In this document: positions 133 to 4,296 of the stretch, piece after piece
Position numbering within the stretch: the first letter of the stretch is position 1
How the letters are laid out: each line of letters starts with the position of its first letter
Source of the DNA: a virus
Lineage: Duplodnaviria; Heunggongvirae; Uroviricota; Caudoviricetes
Strand: one strand, 5' to 3'
IMG/VR virus record: IMGVR_UViG_3300029229_000093
DNA length: 4,296 bases
Position numbers and translations under genes: made by a program
Notes under the pieces: generated by a model
Database searches by the model: none
What the model was told of the DNA's origin: nothing
The model's input: only the letters and a program-made list of their open reading frames with translations

Positions 133-384
133 ATGATGAACATCGAAGAACTGCGTAAAATTTTTTGTGAAGATGGCCTCTATGCTGTGTGCGTTGAAAA
201 TGGAAATATTGTTAGTCATTACCGCATTGTGTGTTTGCAAAAAAATGGGGCTGCGTTAATTAATTTTGTGGATGCCCGAGTGACGGACGGATTTATCTTG
301 CGCGACGGTGAGTTTGTCACTTCATTACAGGTATTGAAAGAGATCGGAATAAAAGCTGGCTTTTCTGCTTTTTCAGAAGAATAA
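133..384 (+). CDS. Hypothetical small prophage protein (83 aa)
   Basis: Intact ORF with ATG at 133 (second ATG at 136) preceded by SD-like GGAAGGA (121-127). Same strand as the downstream phage genes. Size and position resemble small proteins of the Qin nin-like region (possibly rem-like), but I cannot verify this. Confidence 0.55.
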   Translation: MMNIEELRKIFCEDGLYAVCVENGNIVSHYRIVCLQKNGAALINFVDARVTDGFILRDGEFVTSLQVLKEIGIKAGFSAFSEE

Positions 385-1786: not shown

Positions 1787-2160
1787 ATGACTGAACGCAT
1801 AGAATTTGTTTTGCCTTNNNNNNNNNNNCGCCAACGGTGAACACTTACTGGCGACGTCGTGGCAGCACATATTTTGTATCAAAAGTCGGTGAGCGTTATC
1901 GCCGTGATGTGGCGCTAATTGTTCGCCAGCAGCGGCTGAAATTAAACCTGTCCGGAAGGCTGGCGATAAAGATTATTGCAGAGCCACCGGATAAGCGCCG
2001 TCGTGACCTGGACAATATCCTGAAGGCACCACTGGATGCGCTGACGCATGCCGGACTACTTATAGACGACGAGCAGTTTGATGAAATCAATATTGTGCGC
2101 GGTCAGCTCGTTCCTGGTGGGCGGCTGGGGATAAAAATCACAGAACTGGAGTGCGCATGA
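1787..2160 (+). CDS. rusA: RusA-family Holliday-junction resolvase, interrupted by an N-run
   Basis: ATG at 1787 abuts the upstream stop (TAAATG) and encodes MTERIEFVLP before the N-run. After the gap the frame reads ...PTVNTYWRRRG...DKRRRDLDNILKAPLDALTHAGLLIDDEQ..., matching the RusA RRRDLDN catalytic region. Stop TGA 2158-2160. The two halves are out of frame across 11 Ns, so the true gap length is probably not 11. Confidence 0.7.
1818..1828. other. Run of 11 ambiguous bases (assembly gap or masked bases)
   Basis: Literal n characters in the sequence, inside the rusA reading frame. Confidence 0.99.
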
Positions 2161-2846
2161 ATAACCAGTATTTACAGTTTGTGCGTGAGCAGCTCATTAT
2201 CGCCACCGCTGATTTGAGTGGGGCAACAAAAGGTCAGCTTGAAGCCTGGCAGGAGAATGCCATGTTCGATACAGGGCGTTACAGGCGTAAAAAAATCCGG
2301 TACCGCGATGAAGTGACCGGAAAAATGATAACGCGGGATAATCCACCAATCCCGGGAAAACAATCGCTGGCGAAGGGGACGTCAATTCCTCTGGTCAGTC
2401 AGGTTGCTTTTTCTACATCATCATGGCGGCGGGCTGTTTTGTCTCTTGAAGAACATCATAAAGCCTGGTTGTTGTGGTGTTACGGCGAGAGTATTTGTTG
2501 GGAATATCAGATCGCGATAACACAGTGGGCGTGGAATGAATTTAATACTCAATCCGGTACCAGAAAAATTGCAGGGAAAACGCAGGAACGCCTGAAAAAA
2601 TTAATCTGGCTGGCTGCACAGGATGTCAGGAGATGGGTTATAGGACATGATATCTACCAGCAACAGGAGCTTGCCCGTCTGTGTGGGATTAAGCCTGACA
2701 ACTGGAGCCACAATTATGTGAGCTACTGGCGTGAAATACTCGACATTTTTATGAACCTCGATACCGAATCTCTGATTTGCACTGTGAAAAGGAGATCTCA
2801 ACAAAAAGCGGCATTTTTGCAGCGAGATATTGCAAAAGTCAATTAG
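2157..2846 (+). CDS. Putative late-gene antitermination protein Q (lambdoid Q family, 229 aa)
   Basis: ATG at 2157 overlaps the rusA stop (ATGA, 2157-2160), with SD GGAG (2147-2150). Stop TAG 2844-2846. Position directly after rusA and directly before a promoter plus short-leader terminator is the classic lambdoid Q-pR'-tR' arrangement. The ORF track also offers an upstream GTG at 2151. Family assignment is by synteny and size, not a verified alignment. Confidence 0.6.
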   Translation: MNNQYLQFVREQLIIATADLSGATKGQLEAWQENAMFDTGRYRRKKIRYRDEVTGKMITRDNPPIPGKQSLAKGTSIPLVSQVAFSTSSWRRAVLSLEEHHKAWLLWCYGESICWEYQIAITQWAWNEFNTQSGTRKIAGKTQERLKKLIWLAAQDVRRWVIGHDIYQQQELARLCGIKPDNWSHNYVSYWREILDIFMNLDTESLICTVKRRSQQKAAFLQRDIAKVN

Positions 2847-2858
2847 ATAGCATATATT
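2830..2858 (+). promoter_or_regulatory. pR'-like late promoter (sigma70 -35/-10)
   Basis: TTGCAA (2830-2835), 17-bp spacer, TATATT (2853-2858). Overlaps the 3' end of the Q ORF. Predicted start near 2865. Confidence 0.45.
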
Positions 2859-2869
2859 TTATGTAAATG

Positions 2870-2878
2870 TGATATATT
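2870..2878 (+). promoter_or_regulatory. Second -10-like element (TGaTATATT): candidate promoter-proximal pause / Q-engagement site, or alternative extended -10 promoter
   Basis: TG (2870-2871) plus TATATT (2873-2878), 20 bp downstream of the first TATATT. Lambdoid late promoters use a -10-like repeat in the early transcribed region for sigma-dependent pausing. Confidence 0.3.
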
Positions 2879-2893
2879 GCTGTAAAGTGTATA

Positions 2894-2920
2894 AACCCGC
2901 TCAAATGTGCGGGTTTTTTG
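2894..2920 (+). terminator. Rho-independent terminator (tR'-like) ending a short late leader RNA
   Basis: Stem AACCCGC (2894-2900) pairs with GCGGGTT (2909-2915) around an 8-nt loop TCAAATGT, followed by a T6 run (2914-2919). Confidence 0.75.
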
Positions 2921-2949: not shown

Positions 2950-2975
2950 TTGTAATATATGGATATTGTTACAAT
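2950..2975 (+). promoter_or_regulatory. Inverted repeat TTGTAA/TTACAA overlapping a candidate extended -10 promoter (TGtTACAAT) just upstream of the kinase gene
   Basis: TTGTAA (2950-2955) and TTACAA (2969-2974) are reverse complements separated by 13 bp. TG (2967-2968) plus TACAAT (2970-2975) forms an extended -10, about 7 bp before the kinase SD. Confidence 0.3.
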
Positions 2976-2992: not shown

Positions 2993-3757
2993 ATGGAAGA
3001 ACAGCACGGTAATTACTTTATAAAACGAATTCAGTTGATTGGAAGAGGGGCATTTGGCTTTGTTGAACACGTTAAGGTTTACAACCTCAATAAAGGTGAA
3101 TGCGGGGATTATGCTAGAAAGGTTTTAGCACCCGAAAAACCAGAGCTTTTGGCGCAAATAGAGCAGTTTAGAAGGCGTTTTAAAAGGGAGGTTGTGTATC
3201 AATCACATTGCGTACATAGCAATATTGTTCCTATTTATTTGTGCGATTTGTTTGTTGAGAATCCATGGTTCATTATGGATAAAGCAGAATGTGATCTTGA
3301 GCACGAAATAACGAACAACCTTCTTACAACAGATCAAAAAATTTCAATAGTGAAAATGGTATTAGATGGTGTAGCTTACATCCATGCCAAAGGCTATTTA
3401 CACAGAGATATAAAACCCTTTAATGTTTTGCGATTTAGCGACGGAACATACAAGGTGTCTGATTTTGGTCTGGTAAAAGATACGAATCCCGAAGGGGATA
3501 CCACTAAATTGACCGAGATCGGTACCCGTATGGGAAGTACAAGATATATGGCTCCCGAGATTTTATATAATGCAGAGTATTCAGTTAAGACTGATGTTTA
3601 TGCTGTGGGACGGTTAATTGAAGACTTAAATTTAGATGATAAAAAAATAAAGCCTATCATAGCTAAGTGCACAAGGATGGATAAAGATGATAGATATCAG
3701 ACAATAGATGATGTGGCGTTTGATTTTGCGCATTCTTTTTTAAGGAGTGAGTCATGA
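2993..3757 (+). CDS. Eukaryotic-like (Hanks-type) Ser/Thr protein kinase, catalytic domain only (254 aa)
   Basis: Start ATG at 2993 with SD GGTGAG (2983-2988). Read directly: Gly-rich loop IGRGAFGFV (3038-3064), VAIK-type lysine in YARKV (K at 3119-3121), catalytic loop HRDIKPFN (3401-), DFG (3461-3469), APE (3551-3559), subdomain IX Asp in KTDVYAVG. Stop TGA 3755-3757. The longer ORF-track start at 2918 is rejected because it overlaps the terminator. Confidence 0.85.
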   Translation: MEEQHGNYFIKRIQLIGRGAFGFVEHVKVYNLNKGECGDYARKVLAPEKPELLAQIEQFRRRFKREVVYQSHCVHSNIVPIYLCDLFVENPWFIMDKAECDLEHEITNNLLTTDQKISIVKMVLDGVAYIHAKGYLHRDIKPFNVLRFSDGTYKVSDFGLVKDTNPEGDTTKLTEIGTRMGSTRYMAPEILYNAEYSVKTDVYAVGRLIEDLNLDDKKIKPIIAKCTRMDKDDRYQTIDDVAFDFAHSFLRSES

Positions 3758-4296
3758 TTCAGCTGATAGCGACTTCATCATTCTCGTATCCAAAAGAACC
3801 AGGTAGGGTCAACGAAGATTCATTGCTTCCTCCAAAAATTGTAGGAGACGGCGTCTTATTTGCCGTAGCTGATGGTGTAGGTTCATACTCTGGTGCCAGT
3901 TATGCTTCATCCATGGCAATCGCTGAACTTTCAGCATTGACAAGTTTATCTTTTGATGCAGTTCCGAATGTATTTGCTGAAGTTAAGCGAAAAGTTATGT
4001 CGTTAGCTGAAGTTAATGATGAGTTCGATAAAGCTGCTACTACACTTACCTTTTGTTATGTTTGTGATAGCGGAATTATTATTGGTCATATTGGTGATTG
4101 TCGCTTGTATTGCATTGGAGAAAAGAAAGCATATCAATTGACGAAGGACGATACCAGACATCAGATGTTAATTGATCAGAATATTTTTAAACCCAGAGAT
4201 TTGAAGAATAAACCGGGAAAAAATATCTTAACGACTGCCATAGCCTCAAATGTTGATATGGAATACGACTGTGATTTTATCCCGTGGAAAGATTTG
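3754..4296 (+). CDS. PP2C-family (PPM) Ser/Thr protein phosphatase, 5' portion (181 codons, continues past window end)
   Basis: ATG at 3754 overlaps the kinase stop (ATGA), with SD AAGGAG (3742-3747). PP2C motifs read directly: RVNED (motif 1), FAVADGVGS (DGxGG-like, D40/G41 at 3871-3876), TTLT, IGHIGDCRLY (GDSR-like, 4093-4098), LTKDDTRH (LTxDH-like), NILTTAIAS. No stop before 4296. Confidence 0.85.
   Translation, partial: MIQLIATSSFSYPKEPGRVNEDSLLPPKIVGDGVLFAVADGVGSYSGASYASSMAIAELSALTSLSFDAVPNVFAEVKRKVMSLAEVNDEFDKAATTLTFCYVCDSGIIIGHIGDCRLYCIGEKKAYQLTKDDTRHQMLIDQNIFKPRDLKNKPGKNILTTAIASNVDMEYDCDFIPWKDL

What the first reader, a model, noticed from the sequence alone, without database searches (positions are those of the whole stretch)
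3754..3757. ATGA overlap couples kinase and phosphatase translation, giving toxin/antidote-like logic
The kinase stop TGA (3755-3757) overlaps the phosphatase start ATG (3754-3756), with a strong SD AAGGAG inside the kinase 3' end. Tight coupling would keep their stoichiometry fixed, as expected if unopposed kinase activity harms the cell and the phosphatase buffers it, like a toxin-antitoxin or abortive-infection switch.
Basis: partly seen in the sequence, partly recalled or inferred. Interest (0 to 1): 0.55.

Follow-up and report, generated by a model that had tools for sequence, protein, structure and literature searches.

The report
Prophage kinase–phosphatase cassette with overlapping genes
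The four-base overlap is real but is an ordinary operon junction; the notable thing is what it joins, a small protein kinase and its opposing phosphatase that always travel together between prophages and look like an untested two-gene relative of known kinase-based toxin/antidote phage-defence modules.

Summary
In detail: the kinase stop (TGA, 3755-3757) overlaps the phosphatase start (ATG, 3754-3756), with AAGGAG at 3742-3747. An ATGA overlap is not special in itself; RusA/Q in the same window (2157-2160) has the same geometry.

The genes are a 254-aa Hanks-type Ser/Thr kinase and a 247-aa PP2C phosphatase. Both have all catalytic residues. They form an AT-rich cassette just after antiterminator Q and its terminator, the slot that holds stx in 933W-type phages.

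- **Pairing:** the pair is conserved across about 30 lineages of Gammaproteobacteria, always kinase then phosphatase. The junction overlaps in 27 of 30 lineages.
- **Translation signals:** the phosphatase ribosome-binding site is stronger than the kinase's in 29 of 30 lineages.
- **Autonomy:** 18 of 30 lineages have their own terminator.
- **Location:** the cassette sits in prophage accessory slots, including directly after cI, and in islands next to GajA or a NACHT protein.
- **Decay:** five independent events inactivate only the kinase; none inactivates only the phosphatase.

This fits toxin/antidote logic, as shown experimentally for the three-gene KKP module. Toxicity and defence remain untested here. 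The ratio is more likely "phosphatase at least equal to kinase" than fixed. I class it as a new variant of a known kind, of moderate interest.

The parts
2157..2846 (+). Antiterminator Q gene (context). Its ATG at 2157-2159 overlaps the RusA stop at 2158-2160 by the same ATGA.
   Evidence: Pfam Phage_antiter_Q, 3.1e-84. RefSeq annotation of the identical prophage. Sequence read.
2830..2858 (+). Promoter-like site TTGCAA-17-TATATT, a pR'-like late promoter candidate.
   Evidence: Consensus scan only. Its position relative to Q matches pR' of 933W. Inferred, not shown.
2893..2916 (+). Intrinsic terminator (8-bp G+C-rich stem followed by a T-run), tR'-like. The cassette begins just downstream.
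   Evidence: -16.5 kcal/mol for the 50-nt stretch 2881-2930 that contains it. An equivalent hairpin is present in the Cronobacter, Raoultella and phiES15 homologous loci.
2993..3757 (+). Stand-alone Hanks-type (RD) Ser/Thr protein kinase, 254 aa.
   Evidence: Pfam Pkinase, 1.5e-33. PHROG 2361, 8.5e-98. The catalytic residues G17/G19/G22, K43, E66, H137-R138-D139, K141, N144, D157-F158-G159, E189, D201 and R234 are invariant in 27 homologues.
3641..3647 (+). A7 tract inside the kinase. The A6 allele frameshifts the kinase to 218 aa and leaves the phosphatase intact.
   Evidence: Alignment with E. coli 118UI and an IMG/VR contig. Annotation of 118UI. The same 1,504-nt allele occurs in 5 complete genomes.
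3742..3747 (+). Shine-Dalgarno AAGGAG for the phosphatase, embedded in kinase codons Leu-Arg-Ser.
   Evidence: Sequence. Duplex energy -8.7 kcal/mol against -5.3 for the kinase's own SD.
3754..3757 (+). ATGA stop/start overlap (the finding).
   Evidence: The same -4 geometry is found in 21 of 30 family lineages.
3754..4296 (+). PP2C/PPM Ser/Thr phosphatase. The first 181 of 247 codons lie in the window; the gene runs 201 nt plus the stop codon beyond the window end.
   Evidence: Pfam PP2C_2, 3.6e-12. Full gene in L001 12905-13648. The metal-binding residues D22, D40-G41, G114-D115, S194-D195-G196 and D233-D234 are invariant in 10 homologues. The closest solved relatives are PstP and Stp1.

Best explanation
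The ATGA is the internal junction of a two-gene operon. The operon is a self-contained mobile cassette (a moron) inserted behind Q and its terminator in a lambdoid, Stx-phage-like E. coli prophage.

Gene 1 is a minimal, domain-less Hanks-type RD Ser/Thr kinase. Gene 2 is a minimal PP2C phosphatase. The most likely function is a phosphorylation-based toxin/antidote switch of the abortive-infection or exclusion type.

**Proposed mechanism.**
- The kinase is the effector. It would arrest the cell by phosphorylating host and/or phage proteins if left unopposed.
- The phosphatase is the continuously co-produced antagonist. It keeps the kinase activation loop (conserved Thr174) and the substrates dephosphorylated.
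- Three features act together so that no message can give kinase without at least as much phosphatase: the order kinase then phosphatase, the stop/start overlap, and a weak kinase SD against a strong phosphatase SD.
- A trigger then tips the balance. Candidates are an infecting phage's protein that blocks the phosphatase or activates the kinase, or a loss of new synthesis.

**Shown here:** gene identities and intact active sites, obligate pairing, junction geometry, SD asymmetry, an own terminator, movement between accessory slots and defence islands, and kinase-biased decay.

**Inferred:** toxicity, the direction of antagonism on the activation loop, the defence phenotype and the trigger.
For: 1. 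**Both enzymes look active.** All canonical catalytic residues are invariant.
2. **Obligate pairing.** Every kinase-anchored context has the PP2C immediately downstream. That covers 9 protein look-ups plus 2 phage records. Of 70 kinase-anchored IMG/VR loci, 65 have both genes full length and none has an intact kinase without the phosphatase.
3. **Junction.** It overlaps in 27 of 30 lineages and leaves at most a 3-nt gap in 29 of 30.
4. **SD asymmetry.** The phosphatase SD is stronger than the kinase SD in 29 of 30 lineages. Means are -7.8 and -4.5 kcal/mol, Wilcoxon p = 5e-6.
5. **Autonomy.** G+C drops from about 0.5 to about 0.37 at the cassette. A terminator lies within 200 nt after the phosphatase in 18 of 30 lineages, against 1.1 expected from shuffles.
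6. **Location.**
   - Behind three unrelated Q families.
   - Between the lysis genes and the small terminase subunit.
   - In 6 lineages directly downstream of the cI-like repressor on the same strand, the lysogen-expressed slot used by lambda rexAB (own knowledge) and by stk of 933W.
   - Outside phages: next to GajA at 2.5e-208 in P. koreensis, next to a NACHT protein in Xanthomonas, and near a PNP-type effector-like protein in P. putida.
7. **Decay asymmetry.** Five independent kinase-only inactivations leave the phosphatase intact:
   - an A7 to A6 frameshift;
   - a 10-bp deletion;
   - a nonsense codon;
   - two different 5' deletions.

   Set against these are one case with both genes hit by IS elements and no case of phosphatase-only loss.
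8. **Precedent.** KKP shows that prophage Ser/Thr kinases are toxic, that a PP2C is the antitoxin, and that a phage protein inhibiting the phosphatase triggers defence (PMC11341870).
Against: - No experiment exists on this family.
- The kinase hits to PADLOC defence models (mad6, PD-T4-6, Stk2) cover only the generic kinase core. The PD-T4-6 models are known to pick up a gene present in every S. thermophilus genome analysed (PMC11514479).
- The phosphatase has no meaningful defence-family hit.
- The decay asymmetry rests on 5 events (binomial p = 0.03). Two of them come from a phosphatase-anchored sample. In samples that were not anchored on the phosphatase the count is 3 to 0 (p = 0.125).
- In this window the cassette lies behind a terminator that only Q-modified polymerase should read through. 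Promoter-like sites upstream of the kinase are not enriched across lineages (12 of 30 against 8.4 expected). Expression in the lysogen is therefore unproven here.
- Kinase/PP2C operons with overlapping genes also exist as housekeeping signalling pairs such as Stk1/Stp1 and PknB/PstP (own knowledge), where nothing is toxic.
- Toxin-first gene order is the minority arrangement in classical toxin-antitoxin systems (own knowledge).
Confidence: 0.5

Rival explanations
1. Lytic-cycle module. The pair is transcribed with the late genes after Q antitermination. It rewires the dying host, or disarms host defences, for the benefit of the induced phage, as the T7 kinase does. The phosphatase limits or times the kinase activity.
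For: In this window and in at least 5 other lineages the cassette is the first thing after Q and its terminator. In 5-6 lineages it lies between the lysis genes and the terminase, so it sits inside the late operon. Promoter-like sites upstream are not enriched. Phage kinases that broadly phosphorylate host proteins and disarm defences are documented (PMC13645617).
Against: - The same cassette sits directly after cI in 6 lineages, a lysogen-expressed position.
- It also occurs in chromosomal islands with no phage genes, where a late-lytic role makes no sense.
- Among 50,697 phage records it is found in only three, all temperate lambdoid-type genomes, and in no virulent phage.
- T7K is a different kinase type, with DPV in place of DFG.
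- Carrying its own terminator in 18 of 30 lineages marks it as an independent unit.
Confidence: 0.15
2. Non-toxic signalling pair or lysogenic-conversion factor. The two enzymes set the phosphorylation level of particular host or prophage regulators, changing physiology or prophage induction without any killing or defence logic. One example is a nucleoid protein, as KKP does with MvaU.
For: The closest curated models are housekeeping pairs: Stk1-type PASTA kinase at 1.6e-29 and Stp1/IreP phosphatase at 1.7e-27. KKP itself also regulates lysogeny through MvaU phosphorylation. Co-transcribed kinase/PP2C pairs are a normal signalling design (own knowledge). About 86% of E. coli carriers keep both genes intact.
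Against: - Both proteins score far below the cut-offs of those curated families (103 against 450 bits, and 96 against 230 bits).
- The kinase has no sensor, membrane or docking domain to receive a signal.
- Patchy presence (50 of 5,426 E. coli genomes), high mobility and neighbourhood with defence genes are not typical of housekeeping signalling.
- The kinase-only decay bias and the weak/strong SD design are not predicted by a symmetric regulator.
Confidence: 0.25
3. About the overlap only: it is plain genome compaction, typical of phage operons, with no selected role in balancing the two proteins.
For: RusA/Q in the same window and head-tail joining/portal in the same prophage have the identical 4-nt overlap. 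The exact geometry varies within the family (-8, -4, -1, 0, +3, +16), so ATGA itself is not required.
Against: Close apposition together with a strong SD is retained in 29 of 30 lineages despite free variation of the kinase C-terminal residues. The SD asymmetry is systematic. This suggests selection on phosphatase translation, though not on the ATGA as such.
Confidence: 0.3

Closest known systems
KKP (kinase-kinase-phosphatase) module of Pf6 and other prophages (Guo et al. 2024, PMC11341870)
   Same: Both are prophage-borne, horizontally mobile cassettes of Hanks-type Ser/Thr kinase(s) plus a PP2C (PF13672) phosphatase. In KKP the kinases are the toxin and the phosphatase the antitoxin. Defence is triggered when a phage protein (T4 Gp59) inhibits the phosphatase. 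This is the same logic proposed here.
   Different: KKP has three genes in the order PP2C-kinase-kinase. Its two kinases carry FHA and cold-shock domains that are essential for toxicity, and neither kinase is toxic alone. Here there is one kinase of 254 aa with no extra domain, the order is kinase-PP2C, and both proteins are about 250 aa. No direct sequence comparison with KKP proteins was possible with these tools.
Stk of phage 933W (Friedman et al. 2011; cited in PMC9122126)
   Same: It is a eukaryote-like kinase carried by a lambdoid Stx prophage of E. coli. It lies in the cI operon and is reported to cause abortive infection when a heterologous phage activates it (paper title seen; gene position). 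Six lineages of the present cassette occupy the same post-cI slot.
   Different: It is only 24% identical over the core. Stk is 348 aa, has HFD instead of HRD, and has no partner phosphatase.
Stk2 (Staphylococcus), PD-T4-6 (E. coli) and MAD6 kinases of defence systems
   Same: All are Hanks-type kinase cores used as defence effectors. The best PADLOC hits of the kinase are mad6 at 6e-40, PD-T4-6 at 1e-34 and Stk2 at 1e-27.
   Different: The matches cover only the generic catalytic core (for example profile positions 11-201 of 327). Those proteins are longer and act without a dedicated phosphatase. The NCBIfam MAD6 score is 62.5 bits against a cut-off of 460.
Housekeeping kinase/PP2C pairs (PknB/PstP, Stk1/Stp1, PrkC/PrpC)
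   Same: They use the same two enzyme folds, encoded side by side. The PP2C resets the activation-loop phosphothreonines of an RD kinase (own knowledge). PstP and Stp1 are the closest solved phosphatases, at 2e-11 and 1.5e-7.
   Different: Those kinases are membrane receptors with PASTA or other sensor domains. The usual gene order is phosphatase first, and they are core genes rather than mobile ones. Scores here fall far below the family cut-offs.
Kinase toxins of toxin-antitoxin systems (HipA/HipB) and type VII systems
   Same: A kinase acts as the growth-arresting toxin. In type VII systems the antitoxin is an enzyme that reverses or blocks the toxin by chemical modification (KKP was assigned to this type).
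   Different: HipA is a different kinase fold and HipB neutralises it by binding. No homology was seen here.

Membership tests
Hanks-type (eukaryote-like) Ser/Thr protein kinase, RD class | Gly-rich loop, VAIK Lys, alpha-C Glu, HRD catalytic loop with Arg, DFG, APE, and conserved Asp/Arg of the C-lobe | tested here: met
   G17xG19xxG22, K43, E66, H137-R138-D139-x-K141-xx-N144, D157-F158-G159, E189, D201 and R234 are invariant in 27 sequences. Pfam PF00069, 116.7 bits against a cut-off of 31.7.
PP2C/PPM metal-dependent Ser/Thr phosphatase | Conserved acidic residues that bind the two Mn/Mg ions (motifs I, II, VIII, XI) | tested here: met
   D22 (NEDS), D40-G41 (ADGVG), G114-D115, S194-D195-G196 and D233-D234 are invariant in 10 homologues. 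PF13672, 46.7 bits against a cut-off of 24 on the 181 window residues. The query aligns to PstP.
KKP module | Three genes in the order PP2C, kinase, kinase | tested here: not met
   There are two genes in the order kinase, PP2C in every locus examined. The definition is given.
KKP module | Kinases fused to an FHA domain (PfkB) and a cold-shock domain (PfkA) | tested here: not met
   Only Pkinase/PK_Tyr_Ser-Thr domains were found in the 254-aa protein and in the 120 best homologues listed.
KKP module | Kinase activity toxic; PP2C catalytic activity neutralises it | not testable with these tools
   This needs expression experiments. The only indirect support is the kinase-only decay bias and the SD asymmetry.
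PD-T4-6 / Stk2 / MAD6 defence kinases | Full-length match to the family profile or curated cut-off | tested here: not met
   PADLOC matches cover only the catalytic core. NCBIfam antiphage_MADS6 scores 62.5 bits against a cut-off of 460.
Toxin-antitoxin system (functional class) | Adjacent co-transcribed genes; antidote always accompanies the toxin | tested here: met
   The genes are adjacent in all loci examined, and no intact kinase lacks a phosphatase.
Toxin-antitoxin system (functional class) | Toxin arrests growth when the antidote is lost or inhibited | not testable with these tools
   No experimental data were found in the library.
Prophage moron (autonomous accessory unit) | Foreign base composition, own terminator, own promoter, variable presence and position between related phages | tested here: inconclusive
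   - The G+C drop is met.
- A terminator is present in 18 of 30 lineages against 1.1 expected.
- Variable position and presence are met.
- An own promoter is not demonstrated: 12 of 30 against 8.4 expected.

The most novel reading that the evidence does not exclude
This is the type example of an unnamed, widespread family of minimal two-gene "kinase-PP2C" immune switches in prophages and defence islands of Gammaproteobacteria. The phosphatase is the guarded or sensed component. A single domain-less kinase is enough as the abortive-infection effector. That would make it the simplest known phosphorylation-based toxin/antidote defence system. A homopolymer tract (A7) might also allow the toxin to be switched off.
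Probability: 0.35. Interest if true: 0.6.

Novelty: new variant of a known kind. Interest (0 to 1): 0.45.

Why it matters
If the cassette is a toxin/antidote defence switch, it reduces the KKP principle to its minimum: one bare kinase and one bare phosphatase. That would make it an easy system for asking three questions: how a phage is sensed through a phosphatase, which phosphorylations stop a cell, and how such modules spread.

The cassette occupies the same slot as Shiga toxin genes in related prophages. It is present in known pathogenic strains (55989, E24377A, VR50). It may therefore influence which phages can superinfect those strains, or how they induce.

The finding as stated, an ATGA overlap, is routine. 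It should not be used on its own as a marker of toxin-antitoxin logic.

Tried and rejected
- **Genome-contig scan.** The scan with the full kinase alignment chose generic kinase motifs (HRDxKPxN, DFG). I replaced it with protein look-ups and two IMG/VR scans, one anchored on the phosphatase and one on the kinase N-terminus.\n- **PADLOC kinase hits.** I considered them as evidence of membership in PD-T4-6, MAD6 or Stk2 and rejected that. The matches cover the core only, the scores are far below curated cut-offs, and the PD-T4-6 models hit a gene present in every S. thermophilus genome analysed.\n- **Kinase-phosphatase fusion.** PHROG 5650 is a 565-position profile that the phosphatase matches only at positions 273-520, which suggested fusion proteins. 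None was found among the 120 best phosphatase homologues listed; all are 239-259 aa.\n- **Literature searches.** Searches for the RefSeq protein accessions and for a described two-gene kinase/PP2C defence system found nothing beyond KKP.\n- **Own promoter and operator.** No own promoter could be demonstrated. The 6-bp inverted repeat at 2950-2955/2969-2974 is only partly kept in Cronobacter, so I dropped it as an operator candidate.\n- **933W Stk.** I tested it as a possible homologue. It shows only 24% core identity and is a non-RD kinase.\n- **Not run.** I did not run structure prediction or fold search, because sequence motifs already settle fold and activity and a model would not test toxicity.
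Full report
**1. The observation**

The sequence at 3741-3760 reads t-AAGGAG-tgagtc-ATGA-ttc.
- The ORF in the kinase frame ends with TGA at 3755-3757.
- The next gene starts with ATG at 3754-3756.
- AAGGAG lies at 3742-3747, six bases upstream of that ATG.

The window is 100% identical to a prophage of E. coli MS 196-1. RefSeq annotates exactly these limits there (kinase 2993-3757, phosphatase from 3754, offset 9151).

The predicted pairing of this Shine-Dalgarno (SD) sequence with the 16S 3' end is -8.7 kcal/mol. Only 1.6% of positions sampled in the window reach that value.

The overlap is not remarkable by itself. The RusA stop and the Q start at 2157-2160 in the same window form the same ATGA. 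The 25-kb prophage stretch contains three 4-nt overlaps among about 25 same-strand junctions.

**2. What the genes are**

The upstream gene encodes a 254-aa protein that is nothing but a protein-kinase domain (Pfam Pkinase, 1.5e-33).
- In an alignment of 27 homologues every catalytic residue of a Hanks-type kinase is invariant.
- This includes the Arg of HRD, so it is an RD kinase.
- A Thr in the activation loop (T174) is nearly invariant.

The downstream gene is cut by the window end after 181 of 247 codons. It is a PP2C phosphatase (PF13672). All metal-binding acidic residues are invariant in 10 homologues. Its nearest solved relatives are PstP and Stp1.

Both enzymes are therefore predicted to be active. 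Neither has a sensor, membrane or docking domain.

**3. Where the pair sits**

The window is the late-control region of a lambdoid prophage. The gene order is two small unknown genes, a DUF968/HNH protein, RusA and antiterminator Q. After Q come a promoter-like site (2830-2858), a strong intrinsic terminator (2893-2916), and then the kinase.

Downstream in the full prophage lie:
- a terminator-like hairpin just after the phosphatase;
- a DNA methyltransferase gene lacking its 5' part;
- tRNA-Ile, tRNA-Arg and tRNA-Arg;
- the nanS-p-type esterase and the lysis genes.

This is the architecture of phage 933W, in which the same region carries stx.

G+C falls from about 0.5 to about 0.37 exactly at the cassette. 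Only 50 of 5,426 complete E. coli genomes carry it, whereas about 1,190 carry the neighbouring part of Q. It is an acquired accessory unit.

**4. The pair is a conserved, mobile two-gene cassette**

Homologues of the kinase (305 hits) and of the phosphatase (227 hits) are all stand-alone proteins of about 240-285 aa. They come from Enterobacterales, Vibrionales, Pasteurellales, Aeromonas, Pseudomonas and Xanthomonas.

Pairing:
- Every context I read has the phosphatase immediately after the kinase.
- Two scans of IMG/VR added 80 phosphatase-anchored and 70 kinase-anchored viral loci.
- Of the kinase-anchored loci, 65 have both genes full length. Three have a broken kinase with an intact phosphatase. 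One is cut by the contig end. One very divergent locus has a phosphatase whose N-terminus does not align.

Junction geometry, with loci collapsed to 30 lineages at 70% phosphatase identity:

| Junction (nt) | Lineages |
|---|---|
| -4 (ATGA) | 21 |
| -8 | 3 |
| -1 | 3 |
| 0 | 1 |
| +3 | 1 |
| +16 | 1 |

The last residues of the kinase vary freely, but the purine-rich SD is kept.

**5. Translation signals are asymmetric**

In 29 of 30 lineages the phosphatase SD pairs more strongly with the anti-SD than the kinase's own SD. Means are -7.8 and -4.5 kcal/mol, Wilcoxon p = 5e-6. In this window the values are -8.7 and -5.3.

Three features combine here: a weak start for the kinase, a strong start for the phosphatase, and a stop/start overlap. 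Together they mean that a message cannot yield kinase without phosphatase, and probably yields more phosphatase.

A strong internal SD allows fresh initiation as well as re-initiation, so the ratio is biased rather than fixed (inference).

**6. Positions of the cassette**

| Position | Lineages and evidence |
|---|---|
| Behind three unrelated Q families (PF06323, PF06530, PF03589) and before the lysis genes | At least 6 lineages |
| Between Rz/spanin and the small terminase subunit | 5-6 lineages |
| Directly downstream of a cI-like repressor on the same strand | 6 lineages |
| Near Bro/antirepressor genes or the early-left region | |
| Chromosomal islands outside prophages | Next to a full-length GajA (2.5e-208) in P. 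koreensis; next to a NACHT NTPase in Xanthomonas; near transposases and a PNP-type effector-like protein in P. putida |

The post-cI position is the slot of lambda rexAB (own knowledge) and of stk in 933W. It is transcribed in lysogens.

An intrinsic terminator follows the phosphatase within 200 nt in 18 of 30 lineages, against 1.1 expected from shuffles. Promoter-like sites upstream are not enriched (12 of 30 against 8.4 expected).

**7. Decay is one-sided**

Five independent events inactivate only the kinase and leave the phosphatase open reading frame intact:
- an A7 to A6 slip at 3641-3647 that truncates the kinase to 218 aa (five complete E. coli genomes and one viral contig);
- a 10-bp deletion at 3124-3133 that removes the N-lobe;
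- a nonsense codon (L249);
- two different 5' deletions in a Pasteurellaceae-type lineage (L167/L169 and L173).

In one genome, IS elements have hit both genes. I found no locus with an intact kinase and a lost phosphatase.

This is what toxin/antidote logic predicts, but the numbers are small. Five of five gives p = 0.03, and two of those events come from a phosphatase-anchored sample. In samples that were not anchored on the phosphatase the count is three to none (p = 0.125).

**8. Most likely mechanism**

The best-supported reading is a phosphorylation-based toxin/antidote switch carried as a moron.
- RD kinases generally need activation-loop phosphorylation, and PP2C partners remove it, as with PknB/PstP (own knowledge).
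- The phosphatase can therefore hold both the kinase and its substrates in the off state.
- An event that blocks the phosphatase or activates the kinase would release a burst of phosphorylation that arrests the cell.

This logic has been shown experimentally for the prophage KKP module. There the kinases are jointly toxic, the PP2C catalytic motifs are needed for rescue, and T4 Gp59 triggers defence by inhibiting the phosphatase (PMC11341870). Single-kinase precedents exist in Stk2 and in 933W Stk.

I put this reading at about 0.5.

**9. Rivals**

- **Late-lytic host-takeover or anti-defence module (0.15).** The position behind Q favours it. The post-cI and non-phage contexts, and the absence from virulent phages, speak against it.
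- **Non-toxic regulatory or lysogenic-conversion pair (0.25).** This cannot be excluded without experiments. KKP itself also regulates lysogeny. The lack of any input domain, the mobility, the SD design and the decay bias fit it less well.
- **Overlap as simple compaction.** The ATGA as such may be no more than that. What seems selected is close apposition plus a strong phosphatase start.

**10. Comparison with known systems and novelty**

- Membership in the Hanks kinase and PP2C superfamilies is met.
- Membership in KKP is not met: two genes rather than three, reversed order, no FHA or cold-shock domains.
- Hits to the PD-T4-6, MAD6 and Stk2 models cover only the kinase core and fall far below curated cut-offs. 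PD-T4-6 models are known to label a gene found in every S. thermophilus genome analysed.
- 933W Stk is 24% identical and is not an RD kinase.
- I found no paper describing this two-gene cassette. The library is not complete.

I therefore class it as a new variant of a known kind: it works like KKP but is not a member, and its function is untested.

**11. Verdict**

It is not new in principle and is not proven.
- Interest: 0.45.
- The most novel reading still open is a widespread minimal kinase/PP2C immune switch. I give it a probability of about 0.35, and it would deserve about 0.6 if true.

Noticed in passing
window 1818-1829: A run of 12 N lies inside the RusA gene (1787-2160). It is a masked or unresolved stretch, so the ORF listing starts the RusA ORF only at 1837.
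   Followed up: no
window 2157-2160: A second ATGA stop/start overlap joins the RusA stop (TGA 2158-2160) and the Q start (ATG 2157-2159). It has the same geometry as the finding, in an unrelated gene pair.
   Followed up: yes
window 2830-2916: A promoter-like site (TTGCAA-17-TATATT, 2830-2858) starts within the last codons of Q and runs just past its stop (2846). A strong terminator follows at 2893-2916. Together they look like the pR'/tR' late-control unit. An equivalent terminator precedes the cassette in Cronobacter, Raoultella and phiES15.
   Followed up: partly
window 2950-2955 and 2969-2974: A 6-bp inverted repeat, TTGTAA...TTACAA, lies 19 nt upstream of the kinase ATG. It is only partly kept in the Cronobacter homologue and may be chance.
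   Followed up: partly
window 3641-3647: An A7 homopolymer lies in the kinase. The A6 allele, found in five complete E. coli genomes and one IMG/VR contig, truncates the kinase to 218 aa and separates it from the phosphatase by 103 nt. It could be a recurrent off-switch, shared ancestry or a sequencing artefact.
   Followed up: partly
window 3124-3133: This 10-bp stretch is deleted in E. coli 510016 and in an IMG/VR contig. The deletion destroys the kinase N-lobe, including the region after K43, while the phosphatase stays intact.
   Followed up: yes
L001 13798-14384 (downstream of the window): The cassette is followed by a DNA methyltransferase gene lacking its 5' end and by tRNA-Ile, tRNA-Arg and tRNA-Arg, as in 933W. 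In E. coli 504211 the methyltransferase is complete. The insertion in this prophage therefore seems to have removed its 5' part.
   Followed up: partly
L004 2294-4432 (P. koreensis): A full-length Gabija GajA gene (2.5e-208) lies about 1.4 kb upstream of a family member of the cassette, on the opposite strand. I did not look for GajB.
   Followed up: partly
L256 (E. coli SY033): Three IS elements (IS3, IS1, IS3) have landed in Q, in the kinase and in the phosphatase of one prophage copy. This is the only case seen with both cassette genes destroyed.
   Followed up: yes
window 133-384 and 451-729: Two small conserved phage genes of unknown function match PHROG 340 and PHROG 1212 and have no Pfam match.
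   Followed up: no
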